DNA from: a virus
Direction: 5' to 3' (one strand)
UHGV virus genome: UHGV-0461192
DNA length: 34,141 nucleotides
Part shown: piece by piece, positions 152 through 19,825 of the stretch
How the letters are laid out: every line of letters begins with the position of its first letter
How positions within the stretch are numbered: the stretch's first letter is position 1
Translations under genes and position numbers: made by a program
Notes under the pieces: generated by a model
What the model was told of the DNA's origin: nothing
What the model saw: the letters and a program-made list of their open reading frames with translations, nothing else
The model's database searches: none

Positions 152-227
<76 letters not shown>

Positions 228-280
228 GTTTAAAAGGCATCGGCGTCAGCGGATGTCTGGCTGAAAGGCCTGAAGAATTT

Positions 281-354
281 GGCGCGTTAACAAAGCGGTT
301 ATGTAGCGGATTGCAAATCCGTCTAGTCCGGTTCGACTCCGGAACGCGCCTCCA
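281..354 (+). tRNA. cysT: tRNA-Cys (anticodon GCA)
   Basis: 74-nt sequence GGCGCGTTAACAAAGCGGTTATGTAGCGGATTGCAAATCCG...CGCGCCTCCA; anticodon loop ATTGCAAAT; T-arm GGTTCGACTCC; encoded CCA. Confidence 0.93.
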
Positions 355-366
355 CTTTTTTCCCGA

Positions 367-453
367 GCCCGGATGGTGGAATCGGTAGACACAAGGGATT
401 TAAAATCCCTCGGCGTTCGCGCTGTGCGGGTTCAAGTCCCGCTCCGGGTACCA
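367..453 (+). tRNA. leuZ: tRNA-Leu (anticodon TAA), long variable arm
   Basis: 87-nt sequence GCCCGGATGGTGGAATCGGTAGACACAAGGGATTTAAAATCCC...GGGTACCA; class II tRNA with extra arm; anticodon loop GATTTAAAATC. Confidence 0.93.
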
Positions 454-5357: not shown

Positions 5358-6223
5358 AGCGACTCCTTGGTAATGTATACTCAGAGCCGATCAGCGAATA
5401 TTGATCAGCTTCCATAGCGTCAGTGTCGTTGGTCTTTCCTCATCACAAGTTTGGTCACTTGTGATAAATCCGAATGGTTTGGTCGCCGTTCGGGGTAACT
5501 GGCCCGCCTTGTGCGGGTCTTTTGCTATCTAAAGGGTGCCGGTTACGTTTCCGGCGTCGTTATGTTTCCATTACGACCGTACAGGGCTGGTCAGGCCCGG
5601 GCTGGTCTTTCCTGTTTTGAGCTGGTCAGGCTCATGGTCAACGCTGGTCAGGCGTGGTACTTCCTCCGGTCTTTCCCTGGTGTCACGCTGCGGGTTTGGC
5701 CTCTCCTGTTGGGGACTCAGGCACAGCGATAAAACCTGGCTGTGTGAAAAAATGGCCCATCGTGCGGACTGGGCAAAGACTAAACACAGCAAATTGATGA
5801 TGGGCGCCCGGAATCGAACCGGGTAACGGGCAGGGAGTTCCCGTTAAACACCTGTTCACCACAACCGGGAGCGCACTCCGCCATTTCAAAATTTAACGAC
5901 AAAGCTCAAAGTTGAGTCGATGAAGTGCGCTCTCGTGTTGTAGCCAGGACTCTTCCCTGGTGGTCACACCGTATCGCCTTGATGGTGAATCAATCGCTCA
6001 TACCTGGCTGTGGCTTGCACATTCCGGCTACCTGCTATGGAGACAACGCGTTAAGGCTCCGCTTCCATCCAGACCGCTTCGACACATGTGCCATATGCCG
6101 GTGAAGTCTTTCCCTCTGTCACCGTGTTGGCGCCGACGCGCAAAATTTGGTGCCGTCTTTCCGGCTGTCAGAACGTGTTTCTGAACAACTGCCGCTGGGT
6201 AAGCGTTGTTGATGAAAGTGACT

Positions 6224-6246
6224 TTACAATTTGTATTTGTAATGGT
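6224..6246. promoter_or_regulatory. candidate left operator (oL-like) with TTTGTAAT half-site repeats
   Basis: TTTACAATTTGTATTTGTAATGG; shares the TTTGTAAT motif with the repressor-cro intergenic region. Confidence 0.4.
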
Positions 6247-6367: not shown

Positions 6368-6796
6368 CTATTTTGTCTGGTTTTTGGCTTCAAGTAGTTC
6401 TTTTAGCAGTAGATCGAAGTGCTCTCTTTTTTCTTTTAGCTCATTGATTAATTTATTTTTTTCGCTCTCAGGCAGTCCTCTGAATAGTTGCAGTAGAGCC
6501 TGTTCTTGCGGGGTTAGTTCTTGATTGTAATTACCCGGGTGTAGTGTGGATTCATCCAAATATTCCCCTTCATTCATGAAGAAAAAATGAACAGGGTATC
6601 CGGTCACTTTTGCTAGCTTGTCTAATTTATCTTTTCTTGGAGTTACCCCATTACACCATGCCTGAACTGATTGAGCCGTAACCCCAATATGGCGAGCTAA
6701 CTCAGATTGAGACCAGCCTAAGTCTTTTAGAATCCGTTGTAGTCGGCTAGCAAAAGCCATGTTTTTCGTTTTTGTGTTCATACCGTAAGGATACAA
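6368..6796 (-). CDS. prophage repressor, XRE-family HTH, no S24 peptidase domain
   Basis: 142-aa ORF with HTH segment LGWSQSELARHIGVTAQSVQAWCNG; divergent from a Cro-like gene; C-terminus lacks Ser-Lys autocleavage motifs. Confidence 0.8.
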   Translation of the reverse strand: MYPYGMNTKTKNMAFASRLQRILKDLGWSQSELARHIGVTAQSVQAWCNGVTPRKDKLDKLAKVTGYPVHFFFMNEGEYLDESTLHPGNYNQELTPQEQALLQLFRGLPESEKNKLINELKEKREHFDLLLKELLEAKNQTK

Positions 6797-6879
6797 GGTT
6801 TAATTGTAGGGAGCATTGCAAATATAATTTGTAATTACAGTTATTGTTTGTAATGATGACGCGGACACAAGGAGTCCAT
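6797..6879. promoter_or_regulatory. repressor-cro intergenic region: candidate oR operators and divergent promoters
   Basis: palindrome TGTAATTACA (6830-6839) and repeated TTTGTAAT (6828-6835, 6847-6854); possible pR -35 TTGTAA / -10 TAATGA; AAGGAG RBS before the cro-like ATG. Confidence 0.5.
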
Positions 6880-7110
6880 ATGGATAAACAACTGCAAGAC
6901 AAAATTCTTTCCGTAATGAGTCAATCCGAGTTAGGGCGGCGATTAGGGAAAAAACCACAAACGGTAAGCCTCTGGTTCAAAGGACGGGTTCCCGGTGAAG
7001 AGGTTTTGCGCACATCTGAAGCTCTTGAATGGCGCGTGACCCCTCATGATCTTAGACCGGATCTTTACCCAAACCCAGATGACAGCTTGCCTAAAACGGA
7101 AGCAGCTTAA
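6880..7110 (+). CDS. Cro-like regulator (YdaS-like HTH protein)
   Basis: start chosen at MDKQLQDKIL after the AAGGAG RBS; SQSELGRRLGKKPQTVSLWFKGRVPGEEVL...RPDLYP resembles Rac-prophage YdaS. Confidence 0.7.
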   Translation: MDKQLQDKILSVMSQSELGRRLGKKPQTVSLWFKGRVPGEEVLRTSEALEWRVTPHDLRPDLYPNPDDSLPKTEAA

Positions 7111-7168: not shown

Positions 7169-7645
7169 ATGGAAAACCAAGAGGAATTACAAAAAGAGAT
7201 TTTGACCTGGGCGGCAAGGGCAGGGCAGGAACTCGTCACGATTGAAATCTGCCGGGCCTGGTTCAGTCAGGGACGCAATGATGAGTTGAGACTACATGAA
7301 TTTGAGGACGCGGACGGCAACGTGGACTGGAGAGCCATCAACAACAATCGGCAGAAAATCTTTCGCTGGTTACGTGGCGAGACAACGGCGGCGCGCCGAA
7401 AAACTCAGGTGCTGGCCAGTGTGATGAAAGCCGTGCTACCCGCAGAACGGCGGGCACGTCTGGAGTCGCCGGGCGATCCCGTTTTGCTGGCAACGCTGGC
7501 GGCAAAAGAAGGGGTGGAAGCGATTAACGCTGTACATCTCCACTTCGCGCCAGAGTTAACTATTCAGGAAATTGACGAAGCAATAGCGGCGCTGGTAGCG
7601 ACGCGAGGAGCAGTGATACGCACTGCGCAAGACCACCATGCATGA
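7169..7645 (+). CDS. YdaT-like protein (CII-like regulator family)
   Basis: 158-aa ORF; AINNNRQKIFRWLRGETTAARRKTQVLASVMKAVLPAERRARL resembles the remembered Rac YdaT motif (W..QQNIYHRWLKGETKTQREKIQ...LPRELRHRL). Confidence 0.65.
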   Translation: MENQEELQKEILTWAARAGQELVTIEICRAWFSQGRNDELRLHEFEDADGNVDWRAINNNRQKIFRWLRGETTAARRKTQVLASVMKAVLPAERRARLESPGDPVLLATLAAKEGVEAINAVHLHFAPELTIQEIDEAIAALVATRGAVIRTAQDHHA

Positions 7646-11469: not shown

Positions 11470-11691
11470 ATGTTTGGCGATAAACTGGAGTTACCACGGA
11501 ACGGGCGGATAGTGCTCTATATTTCAGATTACAAAGTAACCCGGGCTGAGGTGTTGGAACCGGAAAAACATCTGGTCACGTTACCGGACATTATTGAGTT
11601 GTATAAGCGGGTCGGATATGTGGACTTGCATCGCGATGATGTTCCCGTTGAGTGTATGGAATGTGAACACCGGAGGTTTGAAGTTGATTGA
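11470..11691 (+). CDS. hypothetical small protein
   Basis: 73-aa ORF with GGAGGGAAAGG RBS-like sequence upstream. Confidence 0.45.
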   Translation: MFGDKLELPRNGRIVLYISDYKVTRAEVLEPEKHLVTLPDIIELYKRVGYVDLHRDDVPVECMECEHRRFEVD

Positions 11692-11933
11692 ATTGACTTA
11701 GAAAAAGTCCGGGGCTATAGTTTCCGCGCAGCCGCAAAATCGGTTGCCGGGATTGGCGTCCCGGATATCTAAGTGACGCATAGCCGCGTTAGCGGTTTTT
11801 TTATGTGTTAGGCACGGCCACATTCGCATTATGGTGGGCTGTGTGGGGGCTTCTGTGGAAGCGCCGGGTTCACTTAGCCGGTTACGCCAACCCTGCACAG
11901 CTCACCACCAGATGATTGGCGTCGCTGGTGGTG

Positions 11934-12752
11934 ATGAAAAAAACACTAAGTGAGGCCACTGCGATGACAGTCCAAATATCTGCGGAATCCCTTTCTCCGC
12001 TACATCATAACCAACTTCCCGTCATCACTACTGAATTGCTTGCCAGTTTGTATGGCACGGAAGTAAATGGTATCCAGCAAAACTTCAAGCGCAACATCGC
12101 CAGATTTGTCGTAGGAAAGCATTTTTTTAAGCTGGAAGGTAATGAATTACGCGACTTCAAAAACAGACTGACAGATAGTCAGTCAGTTGCTAAACATACC
12201 CGATCCCTCATTCTCTGGACAGAACGCGGCGCAGCTCGCCATGCCAAAATGCTGGAAACAGAACAGGCCTGGGAAGTTTTCGAAAAGCTGGAAGATTGTT
12301 ATTTTAGCCAGCGTCCAGAGAGGCGGAGTACAACTACCGATGACCGTACTCCCTTGCGTGATGCCGTTAATATACTGGTCGGCAAGAAAGGCATGATGTA
12401 TCCCGATGCCTACACCATGATTCATCAACGCTTCGCCGTCTCTCACATAGAACAACTGTCACAGACGCAAATGTTAGAGGCGATTGAATACATCCACTGC
12501 CTGCTACTCGATGAAAATCACCCAACCATTCCAGATTTTTCTTTTATCACCACTATCAAAAATGGAAAAGTGACCGGGATGCGCCATGTTGCCAAAGGCG
12601 AACATCTGATGACCTTTGACGCTTTCAAAGAGATCGCTGAGCGGGCAGGGTATCTGGTGATCCACAGCGACAATCTGCGAAGTATGACACTGGATAAATT
12701 GATGGTAATGGGGAAAAAGTCGGCTATATCCGTTGCTAATTCAGCATTTTGA
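11934..12752 (+). CDS. ORF6N-domain protein, putative antirepressor
   Basis: N-terminal LPVITTELLASLYGTEVNGIQQNFKRNIARFVVGKHFFKLEGNEL resembles the ORF6N antirepressor-type domain; ORF opens with TTG at 11916, ATG at 11934 or 11964 more likely. Confidence 0.55.
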   Translation: MKKTLSEATAMTVQISAESLSPLHHNQLPVITTELLASLYGTEVNGIQQNFKRNIARFVVGKHFFKLEGNELRDFKNRLTDSQSVAKHTRSLILWTERGAARHAKMLETEQAWEVFEKLEDCYFSQRPERRSTTTDDRTPLRDAVNILVGKKGMMYPDAYTMIHQRFAVSHIEQLSQTQMLEAIEYIHCLLLDENHPTIPDFSFITTIKNGKVTGMRHVAKGEHLMTFDAFKEIAERAGYLVIHSDNLRSMTLDKLMVMGKKSAISVANSAF

Positions 12753-16199: not shown

Positions 16200-16805
16200 T
16201 TACTTGCGTTTAAAAAGGTATTTTGTCACGACCAGCACGAGGCCGAATACCTCTGTCAAAGTACCGCCCATGTACAACTGTAGTGTTAAATCCTCAAATT
16301 CCAGCTTACCTGCGCCGTCGGCAATAAATACACCATTCATTATCAGAAGTTGGAAAGCAAGGATAATCAGGAACCATTTCCCGTATCGTTTTTTTAGAGC
16401 GATTTCTGCTTCAAAATCTTTGTTGTTGAGTTGTTTGCGCTCATGCTCGGTATCAAGTGAATTCACCTGTTTCACAGATGTGAACTCGGTCAAGATTTTA
16501 CTCTCAGTACGGGTGACTTGTTGAGAGGGTGTAGCAGTTGGAATTCTTTTGCTAGACGCAGCTACAGCCATTTTGCGAGCTTCGGCAGCTCTTTTTCTGG
16601 CTATTCCGCGAATACGGACAGCCGTTTTTTTGGGGGCGTGCGAAACCTTTGGCTGAGGTGAAGCTTCGTCAGGAGACTGAACCGGAGTTTCATCGTCCTC
16701 CGGCTCAACCTCTTCTGCTAACTGACGGTGTAGGTTGAGGGAATCCTTCAGTCTGCGTGCTACTTCCTGTTTGAAACGGCTGTTAAAATCGTCATCCGAT
16801 GGCAT
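16200..16805 (-). CDS. hypothetical protein with charged N-terminal region and C-terminal transmembrane helices
   Basis: 201-aa ORF directly downstream of (4 aa gap) the ImmA-like gene; C-terminal hydrophobic segments (WFLIILAFQLLIMNGVFIA, VFGLVLVVTKYLF). Confidence 0.55.
   Translation of the reverse strand: MPSDDDFNSRFKQEVARRLKDSLNLHRQLAEEVEPEDDETPVQSPDEASPQPKVSHAPKKTAVRIRGIARKRAAEARKMAVAASSKRIPTATPSQQVTRTESKILTEFTSVKQVNSLDTEHERKQLNNKDFEAEIALKKRYGKWFLIILAFQLLIMNGVFIADGAGKLEFEDLTLQLYMGGTLTEVFGLVLVVTKYLFKRK
16204..16271. repeat. direct repeat copy B (3' end of the 16200-16805 gene)
   Basis: matches 12781-12848 with 5 mismatches in 68 bp. Confidence 0.75.
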
Positions 16806-16814
16806 TTTAAAGCG

Positions 16815-17303
16815 TTACCCCAACCTCAAGTTCTTTAAACGATAAGTCATCGCATCGTCAGATACGCCAAAATAATGCGCCATTATATAACTTGGTTGAC
16901 CGTCAGCGTGCAGTTTTCTGACCTCATCTACCGGCATCAGAAGTTCTGCTGCGAACTTGTTTGCAAAAATTTCATCAGGATGCGTTCCGGCGCTTGCGGT
17001 TTCGCCACGTAAATCAACGTACTCATATTCATCGCTATGCGATGCTTGCCGGGCGATGTAATGCCCCAACTCATGCCCACATGAAAAACGTTGACGAACT
17101 TTGTTGTCATCACTGTTTAGAAAGATCGCTGGATCTTGATCTTTTTGTTTAATCAGTGCGCCAGAAACTTTCCCAGGAAGATCGGTAATAAAAACATCTA
17201 ATCCCATGTCGTGAGCAATTTTCGCTGGATCAACAGGGAAACCACGCCCGCACCAGAACGTGTCCAGCACTCGCCGGGCGTGCTCTCTTGGGTTGGTAGC
17301 CAT
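16815..17303 (-). CDS. ImmA/IrrE-family zinc metallopeptidase
   Basis: 162-aa ORF with HEXXH motif (GHELGHY) in a context typical of ImmA/IrrE (DUF955) peptidases; GGAGG RBS upstream. Confidence 0.7.
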   Translation of the reverse strand: MATNPREHARRVLDTFWCGRGFPVDPAKIAHDMGLDVFITDLPGKVSGALIKQKDQDPAIFLNSDDNKVRQRFSCGHELGHYIARQASHSDEYEYVDLRGETASAGTHPDEIFANKFAAELLMPVDEVRKLHADGQPSYIMAHYFGVSDDAMTYRLKNLRLG

Positions 17304-18820: not shown

Positions 18821-18933
18821 TGACCATAAACGGTTTAATCCCCTATAAAACCGTTTAATAAAATTCACGACGTGAATATAATTGTTCATTATTCCCTCAT
18901 TGTATTTGGCGTTATGACAAATGCCATAAAATA

Positions 18934-18949
18934 CTGTATAAATATACAG
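18934..18949. promoter_or_regulatory. LexA box (SOS operator)
   Basis: CTGTATAAATATACAG matches the CTGT-N8-ACAG consensus with AT-rich core; 22 nt upstream of a small ORF. Confidence 0.7.
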
Positions 18950-18971
18950 GTTGTGGCATTGGGGGGAAGAC

Positions 18972-19151
18972 ATGAATATTCAAGAATCTATAGGCGAACT
19001 ACCGGAAACATGCCGGGCTGTTATCAAGCGTAAGGACGGACACATCGTTGGTGTGCGTGTTCTGACCGATGATGAGCGGATTGCCAGCCTGATGGCGTTT
19101 CTCGAGTTGGCAGAAATAGCTGGATATACTATTACACCCCCTGACGCGTAA
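18972..19151 (+). CDS. small LexA-regulated protein, candidate antirepressor
   Basis: 59-aa ORF (MNIQESIGELPETCRAVIKRKDGHIVGV...) immediately downstream of the LexA box; function inferred from context. Confidence 0.45.
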   Translation: MNIQESIGELPETCRAVIKRKDGHIVGVRVLTDDERIASLMAFLELAEIAGYTITPPDA

Positions 19152-19228: not shown

Positions 19229-19825
19229 ATGGCGCAGCATTCATTTATCAGGGTATCCGGCGGTTCGCTAATACCCGCGACACCAGACACGCAACGCTGG
19301 TTGACTGAACGAGTCAAACCAGGTGCTGTTGTGTATGCAGATTTCAAACAGGCGCGTAATCCCGCGTTTCATCGTAAATTTTTCTCACTTCTCAACCTGG
19401 GCTTTGATTACTGGCATCCGTCCGGAGGGGCTATTTCTCCTGCGGAGCGCGAACTGGTTCACGGCTACGTTAAGTTACTGGCGTATTACGGTGGACACGG
19501 TGATGTCATGGCAGAGCTGGCTGATCAGTATCTTCTCGATGAGTCGGAAAAGCGCGCGGGGAGTATCAGTGCGGTGAAGTCGTTCGAGGCGTTTCGCGCA
19601 TGGGCGATTATGGAAGCTGGGTTTTATGACGTTCATCAGATGCCAGACGGCAGTTTGATGCGCGTACCTCGTTCAATCTCGTTTGCAGCGATGGACGATC
19701 TTGAGTTCGGTCAACTGTATTCAGCCGTTTTAGATGTGCTGTGGAATTATATTTTGTTCCGCACATTTGCCTCTCAGGAGGCCGCTGAAAATGCCGCCGC
19801 GCAGCTGCTGGATTACACATCATGA
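19229..19825 (+). CDS. conserved lambdoid nin-region protein (possibly YbcN/DUF1367-like)
   Basis: 198-aa ORF, 4-nt overlap with the following YbcO-like gene; family name uncertain. Confidence 0.5.
   Translation: MAQHSFIRVSGGSLIPATPDTQRWLTERVKPGAVVYADFKQARNPAFHRKFFSLLNLGFDYWHPSGGAISPAERELVHGYVKLLAYYGGHGDVMAELADQYLLDESEKRAGSISAVKSFEAFRAWAIMEAGFYDVHQMPDGSLMRVPRSISFAAMDDLEFGQLYSAVLDVLWNYILFRTFASQEAAENAAAQLLDYTS

What the first reader, a model, noticed from the sequence alone, without database searches (positions are those of the whole stretch)
6368..6796. Repressor without an autocleavage domain implies antirepressor-driven induction
The repressor is a short XRE-HTH protein lacking the S24 LexA-like C-terminal domain, so RecA-stimulated self-cleavage is unlikely. 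Gifsy-type prophages solve this with LexA-controlled antirepressors; this window has both a LexA-boxed small gene (18972-19151) and an ORF6N antirepressor-like gene (11934-12752) as candidates.
Basis: partly seen in the sequence, partly recalled or inferred. Interest (0 to 1): 0.45.

Follow-up and report, generated by a model that had tools for sequence, protein, structure and literature searches.

The report
Gifsy-type non-cleavable prophage repressor
This E. coli prophage keeps itself silent with a short repressor that cannot cut itself, and it carries homologues of both antirepressor systems already shown to wake the related Salmonella Gifsy prophages, so it is an unannotated example of a known switch.

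Summary
The gene at 6368-6796 (-) encodes a 130-142 aa repressor with one HTH_3 domain, a disordered linker and a C-terminal helical hairpin. It has no S24 domain, and no S24 domain occurs in any frame of five related prophage records.

It is an end-to-end member of the DicA/GtgR family of non-cleavable prophage repressors, including the family's C-terminal LFxxLPESEK motif.

- **59-aa gene (18972-19151).** It lies behind a near-consensus LexA box that overlaps its promoter. It occupies the slot held by the antirepressor gene gftA in Gifsy-2, directly upstream of DUF1367. It falls in PHROG 340 with Rem, the proven antirepressor of DicA.
- **ORF6N gene.** It is preceded by isrK, c4-a1b1 and C4 RNAs and a small upstream ORF. 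This reproduces the Gifsy-1 isrK-orf45-anrP module, whose product induces Gifsy-1. Its C-terminus carries a Rem-like module.

A third Rem-like ORF lies at 11470-11691.

In 59 family loci from viral contigs, 47 had a LexA box followed by a GftA- or Rem-type small gene.

No binding, cleavage or expression data exist here. The mechanism is known, so this is a new member of a known kind.

The parts
6224..6243 (.). OL-type operator, palindromic 20-mer TTACAATTTGTATTTGTAAT
   Evidence: Reference copy of a three-member repeat family confined to the immunity region.
6368..6796 (-). Prophage repressor of the DicA/GtgR (GfoR) family: HTH_3, linker and C-terminal helical hairpin, no S24 domain. Probable start ATG 6781 (137 aa) or ATG 6760 (130 aa).
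6816..6854 (.). OR region: two abutting palindromic operators (6816-6835 and 6835-6854) between the repressor and cro genes
   Evidence: the pattern matches on both strands at these sites and nowhere else except OL.
6880..7110 (+). Cro-like gene (YdaS family HTH)
   Evidence: Pfam YdaS_toxin E 1.2e-8; phrog_35; RefSeq start in ETEC1738.
7169..7645 (+). cII-like gene (YdaT family)
   Evidence: Pfam YdaT_toxin E 2e-15; phrog_163, CII-like activator, E 7e-42.
11470..11691 (+). 73-aa stand-alone Rem-family ORF in the early-right operon (third copy of the module)
   Evidence: phrog_340 E 3.5e-21. Conserved next to isrK in related prophages.
11693..11802 (+). isrK promoter-like site (TTGACT-17-TATAGT, 11693-11721), c4-a1b1 targets (11715-11767) and IsrK sRNA (11728-11802) with its terminator (11782-11797)
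   Evidence: Rfam RF01394 80.4 bits (gathering score 50) and RF03163 52.9 bits; promoter and terminator scan.
11827..11912 (+). C4-type antisense RNA element
   Evidence: Rfam RF01695 75.2 bits, gathering score 45. The same element lies upstream of Gifsy-1 anrP.
11831..11953 (+). 40-codon upstream ORF, the counterpart of Gifsy-1 orf45. It ends 8 nt before ATG 11961.
   Evidence: compared with the orf45 description in PMC4825925.
11961..12752 (+).
   Evidence: Pfam ORF6N. 66% identity to Gifsy-1 STM2616/AnrP over about 120 aa. Residues 114-193 are 52% identical to P22 ant. phrog_340 matches residues 207-248, E 4.5e-12. BLASTP to the 59-aa ORF gives E 5e-7.
18827..18857 (+). Hairpin upstream of the SOS promoter (10-bp stem)
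   Evidence: RNA fold -10.2 kcal/mol, z -2.5. Gifsy LexA boxes are likewise preceded by terminator-like palindromes. The T-run is weak, so terminator function is not shown.
18914..18951 (+). SOS promoter: -35 ATGACA (18914-18919), 17-nt spacer, -10 TATAAA (18937-18942), overlapped by LexA box TACTGTATAAATATACAGGT (18932-18951)
   Evidence: Sequence read. LexA box statistics. The box is conserved 38-40 nt before the ATG in all ten viral-contig homologues of >=73% identity whose upstream sequence is held. The hexamers were assigned by eye; the tool's scan did not list them.
18972..19151 (+). 59-aa Rem/GfoA-family small antirepressor candidate, with Shine-Dalgarno GGGGGGAAG at 18961-18969
   Evidence: phrog_340 E 1.6e-20. 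Rem falls in the same PHROG, E 4.4e-21. Profile-profile match to the GftA/GfoA family: probability 90.5%, E 1.4e-6. AF2 pLDDT 86: helix, beta-hairpin, helix.
19229..19825 (+). DUF1367 gene, homologue of Gifsy STM1020/STM2620 (the 'irsA homologue' downstream of gftA)
   Evidence: Pfam DUF1367 E 6e-78; 56% identity to STM1020.

Best explanation
The gene encodes the lysogenic repressor of an E. coli Gifsy-like prophage that is common in ST131. It belongs to the DicA/GtgR/GfoR family, in which an N-terminal HTH binds palindromic operators at OL and OR and a C-terminal helical hairpin probably mediates dimerisation.

It has no S24 protease domain, so it cannot respond to RecA by self-cleavage. Induction is instead delivered in trans by antirepressor proteins that bind the repressor and take it off the DNA. 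Two routes are encoded.

**Route 1, SOS.** LexA occupies a box over the -10 of the promoter of the 59-aa gene at 18972-19151. DNA damage cleaves LexA and the small Rem/GfoA-family protein is made. It then titrates the repressor.

**Route 2, SOS-independent.** An isrK/C4 RNA leader and a small upstream ORF gate translation of an AnrP-like ORF6N protein (11961-12752), as in Gifsy-1. That protein ends in the same Rem-like module.

The 73-aa Rem-like ORF in the early-right operon would be made only after derepression. It may reinforce the decision or act on co-resident prophages.

Shown here: domain content, homologies, synteny, the RNA elements, conservation of the LexA box and family-wide co-occurrence. 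Inferred: LexA binding, protein-protein binding, and which route matters in vivo.
For: **Repressor**
- HTH_3 only; all-helical AF2 model; no S24 domain in five related prophage records.
- End-to-end homology to GtgR and DicA. The DicA NCBIfam profile is matched over positions 2-132 of 135.
- Conserved LFxxLPESEK motif. Operators occur only in the immunity region.

**Route 1**
- The LexA box matches 17 of 20 consensus positions and is unique in the window.
- The box core is kept in the ten homologues of >=73% identity whose upstream sequence is held, while its spacer and the protein's N-terminus vary.
- The order LexA box, small gene, DUF1367 mirrors Gifsy-2, which has LexA box, dinI, gftA, STM1020.
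- The small gene is in PHROG 340 together with Rem. Rem derepresses DicA targets 165-fold (PMC10448788).
- Profile-profile link to 33 GftA/GfoA-type proteins: probability 90.5%.
- Of 59 DicA/GtgR-family loci with >=7 kb on the cro side, 47 have a strong LexA box followed within 700 nt by a GftA-type (45) or Rem-type (2) small ORF. Six more are this prophage type, whose box lies 12 kb away and so outside the flank.
- Every related record long enough to judge carries both a family repressor and the small gene.

**Route 2**
- isrK, c4-a1b1 and C4 all score above Rfam gathering thresholds directly upstream of the ORF6N gene.
- The same RNA set lies upstream of Gifsy-1 STM2616/AnrP, which is 66% identical over the ORF6N domain.
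- AnrP expression induces Gifsy-1 (PMC4825925).
- A Rem-like module sits at the C-terminus of the window protein. A weaker one sits at the C-terminus of AnrP.

**Gifsy precedent**
- Gifsy repressors are not cleaved, lexA3 blocks induction, and repressor-antirepressor complexes were purified (PMC3121763).
Against: - There is no experimental or expression evidence for this prophage.
- The 59-aa protein has no pairwise BLASTP similarity to GftA or Rem. The link exists only at profile level, and a shallow profile comparison failed (probabilities 1.6% and 37%).
- dinI, the first gene of the Gifsy SOS operon, is absent here.
- There is no tight co-variation between partners. An identical repressor goes with a 76%-identical small protein. 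A 98%-identical small protein goes with a 34%-identical repressor in record G012. So cognate pairing cannot be deduced from sequence.
- The co-occurrence of the two regions in about 440 E. coli genomes is largely clonal, mostly ST131.
- Rem-family genes also sit next to S24-type CI repressors in Stx phages (77 of 80 loci). More distant Rem-type genes, including rem itself, have no LexA box. The family is therefore neither restricted to this repressor type nor always SOS-wired.
- The IMG/VR loci are not independent; many are near-identical Salmonella prophages.
Confidence: 0.75

Rival explanations
1. The isrK/C4-gated AnrP-like protein is the real inducer of this prophage. The LexA-boxed 59-aa protein serves another purpose, such as inactivating repressors of co-resident prophages or modulating the SOS response.
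For: AnrP alone induces Gifsy-1. The window protein combines three antirepressor-associated parts: ORF6N, a P22-Ant-like middle and a Rem-like C-terminus. Antirepressors in this family can act on non-cognate repressors. The small protein does not co-vary with the repressor.
Against: ETEC1738 carries an identical repressor but has no isrK, C4 or ORF6N gene, and it keeps the small gene. In 47 of 59 family loci the LexA-controlled small gene is the recurrent partner. In Gifsy prophages lexA3 abolishes mitomycin induction.
Confidence: 0.12
2. The ImmA/IrrE/CapP-type metallopeptidase at 16815-17303 cleaves the repressor after DNA damage, as ImmA cleaves ImmR and CapP cleaves CapH. Induction would then be proteolytic, although not autoproteolytic.
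For: Pfam Peptidase_M78 E 7.7e-18 and PADLOC capP E 2.4e-25. ImmR, CapH and DdrO are likewise short HTH_3 repressors with helical C-terminal domains, and the CapH N-terminal domain and DdrO appear among the fold matches.
Against: The peptidase lies 10 kb from the repressor on the opposite strand, in a low-GC cargo region. It has no adjacent HTH gene. It is absent from three prophages with a 100% identical repressor (L008, L013/G006, L018/G011).
Confidence: 0.04
3. The repressor is a permanent silencer like RacR or DicA in cryptic prophages. The element is not normally induced, and the LexA-boxed ORF and the Rem-like modules are leftovers.
For: RacR and DicA belong to the same family and sit in defective prophages. 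The ETEC1738 copy has a 2-bp deletion in the LexA box, an IS3 insertion and no isrK/anrP.
Against: The window and the complete IMG/VR records carry full replication, lysis, terminase and morphogenesis genes. The LexA box core is intact in the ten homologues of >=73% identity whose upstream sequence is held, despite spacer changes. All three Rem-like modules have intact frames.
Confidence: 0.07
4. The repressor is cleaved in a RecA-dependent way despite lacking a recognisable S24 domain.
For: None found.
Against: There is no S24 match and the model is all-helical. There is no Ala-Gly or Cys-Gly dipeptide anywhere in the sequence (read). [quoted passage not shown]
Confidence: 0.02

Closest known systems
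GtgR/GfoR/GfhR repressors with the LexA-controlled antirepressors GftA/GfoA/GfhA of Salmonella Gifsy-1, -2 and -3 (Lemire, Figueroa-Bossi & Bossi 2011, PMC3121763)
   Same: The repressor is a short HTH protein, homologous end to end, with no cleavage motif. The antirepressor gene lies outside the immunity region, between the replication genes and Q. It is preceded by a hairpin and a LexA box and followed by a DUF1367 gene. The small protein is related at profile level.
   Different: There is no dinI gene between the LexA box and the small gene. The small protein is of the Rem subtype (PHROG 340), not the GftA subtype (PHROG 4847). The box lies 12 kb from the repressor, against a median of 7 kb, because of a cargo insertion. 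The host is E. coli.
DicA-Rem of the E. coli K-12 Qin cryptic prophage (Ragunathan & Vanderpool 2023, PMC10448788)
   Same: The repressor is 32% identical to DicA over its full length. The 59-aa protein and Rem belong to the same PHROG and share the C-terminal hairpin-helix core.
   Different: rem has no LexA box and its inducing signal is unknown. Here the family member sits behind a near-consensus LexA box. Qin is defective, whereas this prophage looks complete.
isrK-orf45-anrP of Gifsy-1 (Hershko-Shalev et al. 2016, PMC4825925), related to the c4-icd-ant immI region of phages P1 and P7 (the P1/P7 part is from general knowledge and the Rfam family descriptions)
   Same: The order is the same: promoter, c4-a1b1/IsrK with terminator, C4-type element, short upstream ORF, then an ORF6N-domain antirepressor. 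The ORF6N domain is 66% identical.
   Different: The module lies upstream of the cargo and Q region, not downstream of Q. The upstream ORF ends 8 nt before the start codon and does not overlap it. The C-terminal half of the protein differs, with a P22-Ant-like segment and a clear Rem-like module.
SinR-SinI of Bacillus subtilis (PDB 1b0n) and arbitrium phage repressor-AimX complexes (PDB 9sf2, 9iaq)
   Same: An HTH_3 repressor with a C-terminal helical domain is antagonised by a small protein. 1b0n_A is the top fold match to the model.
   Different: The match is weak (E 2e-3, TM 0.40-0.53) and is driven by the HTH domain. No homology of the C-terminal domain or of the small protein is shown. 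This is an analogy only.
Lambda CI, P22 C2 and LexA (S24 autocleaving repressors)
   Same: An HTH DNA-binding domain, a divergent cro gene and OL/OR operators.
   Different: There is no S24 domain, no Ser/Lys dyad context and no Ala-Gly site, and the protein is about half the length.

Membership tests
DicA/GtgR/GfoR non-cleavable prophage repressors | N-terminal Cro/CI-type HTH | tested here: met
   Pfam HTH_3 E 1.9e-12 at residues 19-70. Match to the 434 repressor DNA-binding domain in the PDB.
DicA/GtgR/GfoR non-cleavable prophage repressors | Small size (about 130-160 aa) with no S24 peptidase domain or Ala-Gly site | tested here: met
   130-142 aa and no Pfam domain beyond the HTH. All-helical model. 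No PF00717 match in related prophages. No AG or CG dipeptide in the sequence.
DicA/GtgR/GfoR non-cleavable prophage repressors | Full-length homology including the C-terminal LFxxLPE(S/A)(E/D)K helical region | tested here: met
   GtgR 33% identity, E 6e-23. DicA 32%, E 1e-17. Motif invariant across alignments A6 and A7. NCBIfam DicA E 3e-20, but at 72 bits it is below the 101-bit cut-off, so this is a family relative and not a DicA equivalog.
DicA/GtgR/GfoR non-cleavable prophage repressors | Not cleaved during SOS induction; inactivated by binding an antirepressor | not testable with these tools
   Shown only for the Gifsy repressors and, genetically, for DicA-Rem.
GfoA/GftA/Rem small antirepressors | Small protein (about 59-85 aa) of the shared sequence family | tested here: met
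   phrog_340 E 1.6e-20 for the 59-aa ORF and 4.4e-21 for Rem. The link to the GftA/GfoA branch is hhalign probability 90.5%, E 1.4e-6 with deep profiles, but only 1.6-37% with shallow ones. Pairwise BLASTP finds nothing.
GfoA/GftA/Rem small antirepressors | Gene outside the immunity region under a LexA box at its promoter (Gifsy type) | tested here: met
   The box matches 17 of 20 consensus positions, overlaps the -10 and ends 21 nt before the ATG. It is conserved in homologues. LexA binding itself was not tested.
GfoA/GftA/Rem small antirepressors | Operon order dinI, antirepressor, irsA/DUF1367 homologue | tested here: not met
   DUF1367 follows, but no dinI gene lies between the box and the small gene. 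Several family loci likewise have the box directly before the small gene, so dinI is common but not obligatory.
GfoA/GftA/Rem small antirepressors | Binds the repressor and releases it from the operator | not testable with these tools
   No complex prediction or assay was available.
isrK-orf45-anrP / C4-controlled antirepressor module | IsrK sRNA with c4-a1b1 targets and a C4-type element upstream of the antirepressor gene | tested here: met
   RF01394 80.4 bits, RF03163 52.9 bits and RF01695 75.2 bits, all above gathering scores. The same trio occurs in Gifsy-1.
isrK-orf45-anrP / C4-controlled antirepressor module | Short upstream ORF translationally coupled to the antirepressor gene | tested here: inconclusive
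   A 40-codon ORF (11831-11953) ends 8 nt before ATG 11961. In Gifsy-1 the stop overlaps the start as AUGA. Coupling was not tested.
isrK-orf45-anrP / C4-controlled antirepressor module | AnrP-type ORF6N protein | tested here: met
   66% identity over the first ~120 residues. The C-terminal halves differ, but both match the Rem-family HMM: 7e-23 for the window protein and 3.5e-6 (13.8 bits, weak) for AnrP.
S24 autocleaving repressors (lambda CI, LexA) | C-terminal Peptidase_S24 domain | tested here: not met
ImmR-ImmA / CapH-CapP protease-controlled repressors | M78 protease encoded next to, and co-inherited with, the repressor | tested here: not met
   The protease is 10 kb away, on the opposite strand, in cargo. 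It is absent from three prophages with an identical repressor.

The most novel reading that the evidence does not exclude
The ~45-residue beta-hairpin-plus-helix unit may be a portable repressor-docking module aimed at the conserved C-terminal LFxxLPESEK hairpin of DicA-family repressors. It is shared by the 59-aa ORF, the 73-aa ORF, the C-terminus of the ORF6N protein, Rem, GfoA/GftA and apparently AnrP.

This prophage would wire three copies to three different inputs: LexA/SOS, an isrK/C4 RNA gate, and its own early-right promoter. Because docking would be on the conserved part of the repressor, the modules could cross-induce heteroimmune co-resident prophages. They might also act from phages that themselves use cleavable repressors. 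The Rem-like ORFs found next to S24-type CI genes in Stx phages would then be analogous to FsoA of Fels-1.
Probability: 0.3. Interest if true: 0.55.

Novelty: new member of a known kind. Interest (0 to 1): 0.35.

Why it matters
This prophage type is present in about 8% of complete E. coli genomes (437 of 5,426), mostly the pandemic ST131 lineage. RefSeq annotates its repressor only as a 'helix-turn-helix domain-containing protein' and its small inducer gene as 'hypothetical protein'.

Recognising it as a Gifsy-type switch predicts three things:
- SOS-inducing antibiotics should induce it through LexA and not through repressor cleavage.
- A second, RNA-gated route may induce it without DNA damage.
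- Its antirepressors could act on other prophages in the same cell.

It also links Rem, whose inducing signal is unknown in K-12, to SOS control in a close relative.

The mechanism itself is established, so the value lies in annotation and in a testable model, not in a new principle.

Tried and rejected
- **Pairwise BLASTP.** The 59-aa protein against GftA and against Rem gave no alignment.
- **Shallow profile comparison.** Nine Rem-like sequences against five GftA sequences gave probability 1.6%. With 76 Rem-like sequences it rose to 37%. Only after harvesting 33 GftA/GfoA-type proteins from LexA-boxed slots did it reach 90.5%.
- **Word-based homologue search.** The small protein found only seven close E. 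coli relatives, all unnamed.
- **Own genome.** The assembly is not held, so other prophages and repressors in the same cell could not be surveyed.
- **Phage vB_EcoM-705R4.** It carries the identical small gene, but it appears in a preprint on phages located in the genomes of clinical isolates (title and abstract only were read). I found no evidence that it was recovered by induction, so it gives no support for inducibility.
- **S24-type control set.** The Stx-phage CI loci were a biased choice, because they were picked from hits to the small protein. That set serves only to show that Rem-like genes are not exclusive to DicA-family repressors.
- **Fold search.** The small-protein model found nothing in the PDB (best E 2.9). 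The repressor model's matches are dominated by the HTH domain.
- **ImmA/CapP-like peptidase.** Considered as an inducer and rejected on position and lack of co-inheritance.
- **Second LexA site in the immunity region.** Only a one-mismatch core at 5852-5867 was found, which is within chance expectation.
Full report
**What is at the coordinates**

On the minus strand, 6796 to 6368 is an open frame of 142 codons from a TTG. Alignment with DicA and GtgR favours the ATG at 6781, giving 137 aa. RefSeq annotates the ATG at 6760, giving 130 aa, in a strain whose protein is 100% identical.

Pfam sees one domain, HTH_3 at residues 19-70 (E 1.9e-12), and nothing in the C-terminal half.

An AlphaFold2 model built on 20 family members has mean pLDDT 80. 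It shows:
- five HTH helices (8-68);
- a low-confidence linker (69-90);
- a helical hairpin (91-101 and 105-135);
- no beta strand, so no S24 fold, which is a beta fold.

A six-frame search with Peptidase_S24 found no match in five related prophage records, three of them complete. The same search rang in 10 of 14 control genomes.

**Genomic setting**

The gene is the left arm of a classical immunity region:
- A cro-like YdaS gene (6880-7110) and a cII-like YdaT gene (7169-7645) diverge from it.
- Two abutting palindromic 20-mers lie between the repressor and cro genes (6816-6835 and 6835-6854).
- A third lies just downstream of the repressor gene (6224-6243).
- The pattern occurs nowhere else in the window apart from one two-mismatch chance hit.

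The window is a lambdoid or Gifsy-like prophage. It starts beside three tRNA genes and an integrase, and it carries replication, Q, lysis, terminase and morphogenesis genes. The immunity region is present at >=95% identity in 437 of 5,426 complete E. coli genomes, many labelled ST131.

**Family of the repressor**

The protein aligns over its whole length with three references:
- the Gifsy-1/-2 repressor GtgR of Salmonella LT2: 33% identity, E 6e-23;
- DicA of the K-12 Qin prophage: 32% identity, E 1e-17;
- the NCBIfam DicA profile, matched over positions 2-132 of 135, but below its cut-off.

The most conserved feature of the family is in the C-terminal hairpin, LxLFxxLPE(S/A)(E/D)K. The window protein has LLQLFRGLPESEKNKLI.

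Lemire et al. showed that the Gifsy repressors are not cleaved during mitomycin C induction. They also showed that lexA3 blocks induction, and that small LexA-controlled antirepressors bind the repressors in stable complexes. They noted gfoR/gtgR homologues in most E. coli genomes as candidates for the same control (PMC3121763).

**Candidate 1: the LexA-boxed 59-aa gene**

The sequence TACTGTATAAATATACAGGT at 18932-18951 matches 17 of 20 consensus positions. It is the only match in the window at up to three mismatches, against none in 100 shuffles. The bare CTGT-N8-ACAG core alone would occur by chance.

Its position fits an SOS promoter:
- It overlaps a -10 TATAAA (18937-18942), which lies 17 nt after a -35 ATGACA (18914-18919). 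These were read by eye.
- The box ends 21 nt before the ATG, behind a strong Shine-Dalgarno sequence.
- A 10-bp hairpin precedes it, as in the Gifsy prophages.

The gene is followed by a DUF1367 gene that is 56% identical to Gifsy-2 STM1020. In Gifsy-2 the order is LexA box, dinI, gftA, STM1020. The 59-aa gene therefore occupies the gftA slot, without dinI.

**Family of the small protein**

It has no pairwise similarity to GftA or Rem, but profile-level evidence places it with both:
- It matches PHROG 340 (E 1.6e-20).
- Rem of Qin matches the same PHROG (E 4.4e-21). Rem is the protein shown to relieve DicA repression 165-fold (PMC10448788).
- GftA falls in a different PHROG.
- After I collected 33 distinct GftA/GfoA-type proteins from LexA-boxed slots of family prophages, a profile-profile comparison with 75 Rem-type sequences (Rem itself removed) gave probability 90.5% and E 1.4e-6 over 43 columns. 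Shallower profiles had failed.
- Two proteins from such slots (in L109 and L123) look like intermediates. They have a GfoA-like N-terminus and a Rem-like C-terminus.

The AF2 model of the 59-aa protein (pLDDT 86) is a short helix, a beta-hairpin and a helix. It has no match in the PDB.

**Conservation and co-occurrence**

- **LexA box.** In IMG/VR, each of the ten homologues of >=73% identity whose upstream sequence is held keeps the eight core bases of the box, 38-40 nt before the ATG. The spacer and the protein's N-terminal half vary.
- **Related records.** In the records long enough to judge, the small gene accompanies an identical repressor three times (G006, G008, G011). Once (G012) it accompanies a 34%-identical but clearly DicA-family repressor. 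E. coli ETEC1738 has the identical repressor with a 76%-identical small protein.
- **Family survey.** I fetched 80 DicA/GtgR-family repressor loci. Of the 59 with at least 7 kb on the cro side, 47 have a strong LexA box followed within 700 nt by a GftA-type (45) or Rem-type (2) small ORF. The box lies 3.7-9.0 kb from the repressor. Six more are this prophage type, whose box lies 12 kb away because of a cargo insertion.

These loci are not independent, and the E. coli co-occurrence is largely clonal. The pattern is nevertheless consistent.

**Candidate 2: the ORF6N gene**

Rfam places three elements directly upstream, all above their gathering scores:
- c4-a1b1 at 11715-11767;
- IsrK at 11728-11802 (80 bits);
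- a C4-type antisense RNA at 11827-11912 (75 bits).

A promoter-like site (TTGACT-17-TATAGT, 11693-11721) ends six bases before the IsrK start. The IsrK terminator is found at 11782-11797. A 40-codon ORF (11831-11953) ends 8 nt before ATG 11961, which has a GAGG ribosome site and fits the PHROG alignment better than 11934.

Gifsy-1 has the same RNA trio upstream of STM2616, which is AnrP. The window protein is 66% identical to AnrP over the ORF6N domain.

Hershko-Shalev et al. showed the following (PMC4825925):
- IsrK read-through RNA carries orf45 and anrP.
- Short IsrK activates their translation in trans.
- AnrP raises transcription of the antQ operon.
- AnrP expression induces Gifsy-1.
- IsrK rises in stationary phase and on peroxide exposure.

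Beyond the ORF6N domain the window protein differs from AnrP. Residues 114-193 resemble P22 Ant (52% identity). Residues 207-248 are a Rem-like module (phrog_340 E 4.5e-12; BLASTP to the 59-aa ORF E 5e-7). AnrP's own C-terminus gives a weak match to my Rem-family model (E 3.5e-6 in a two-sequence search, 13.8 bits).

**A third copy of the module**

The 73-aa ORF at 11470-11691, just before the isrK promoter, is also in PHROG 340 (E 3.5e-21). It travels with isrK and the ORF6N gene in related prophages. It has no promoter signal of its own that I could see, so it would be expressed from the early-right operon after derepression.

**Rivals**

*ImmA/IrrE/CapP-type peptidase at 16815-17303.* It could in principle cleave a short HTH repressor. 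The evidence is against this:
- It lies in low-GC cargo on the opposite strand, with no adjacent HTH gene.
- It is missing from three prophages whose repressor is identical.

*Permanently silent, Rac- or Qin-like element.* This is unlikely for the window copy, which looks complete. It may apply to the ETEC1738 copy, which has a 2-bp deletion in the LexA box, an IS3 insertion and no isrK/anrP.

**Limits**

- Nothing here demonstrates LexA binding, protein-protein binding or induction.
- Cognate pairing cannot be read from co-variation, because identical repressors go with diverged small proteins and the reverse. This fits the known promiscuity of Gifsy antirepressors but proves nothing.
- Rem-family genes are not confined to this repressor type. 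They occur next to S24-type CI genes in Stx phages. They are also not always LexA-controlled.

**Verdict**

This is a Gifsy-type non-cleavable repressor, with homologues of both characterised Gifsy antirepressor routes encoded in the same prophage. It is a new, unannotated member of a known kind.

The modestly new points are:
- a Rem-family gene under a near-consensus LexA box;
- three copies of the same module on three different inputs in one prophage;
- the profile-level link between the Rem, GfoA/GftA and AnrP C-terminal modules.

Noticed in passing
L008:30440-30490 (E. coli ETEC1738, NZ_CP122768.1): A prophage with a 100% identical repressor has a 2-bp deletion in the LexA box (CTGT-N6-ACAG) and an IS3 insertion. 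It has no isrK/C4/ORF6N module. It looks like a copy losing its induction circuitry.
   Followed up: partly
L047:1477-1890 (IMG/VR record G012): The prophage backbone is the same (cII 98%, small antirepressor 98%), but the repressor and cro are swapped for a different DicA-family pair with 34% identity. Either the small protein serves heteroimmune repressors, or pairing is loose.
   Followed up: partly
L128-L207 (Stx-phage-type loci), e.g. L003:3977-4159: 77 of 80 loci with a 229-aa CI repressor (taken to be S24-type from its length and annotation; its domains were not scanned) carry a 60-87 aa Rem-family ORF about 2 kb away in the early-left operon. This recalls FsoA of Fels-1, an antirepressor carried by a phage that itself uses repressor cleavage.
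   Followed up: partly
L019-L042, e.g. L020:9998-10180: Rem-family genes about 43% identical to the window's sit directly upstream of DUF1367, or of a remnant of it. Most of these loci also hold a DicA-family repressor 1.2-6 kb away. They have no LexA box, like rem in Qin, so their inducing signal is unknown.
   Followed up: partly
L109:3932-4171 and L123:3920-4168: Small proteins in LexA-controlled slots combine a GfoA-like N-terminus (YDIVRRSDG) with a Rem-like C-terminus (LGYRVTPP). L123 has LexA box, dinI, then the ORF. L109 has the box and the ORF with no dinI seen. They look like intermediates between the two antirepressor subfamilies.
   Followed up: partly
L053:1492-2284: One related prophage has a 1-bp insertion in the ORF6N gene, which leaves a 167-aa ORF.
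   Followed up: no
window 16200-17303: A CapP/ImmA/RmrA-like M78 peptidase sits with a 201-aa partner in low-GC cargo. It is variably present among prophages that share the same repressor.
   Followed up: partly
window 152-450: Three tRNA genes lie at the left end, next to the integrase ORF (584-1630). This matches the tRNA-Gly/Cys/Leu attachment locus downstream of pgsA seen in ETEC1738.
   Followed up: no
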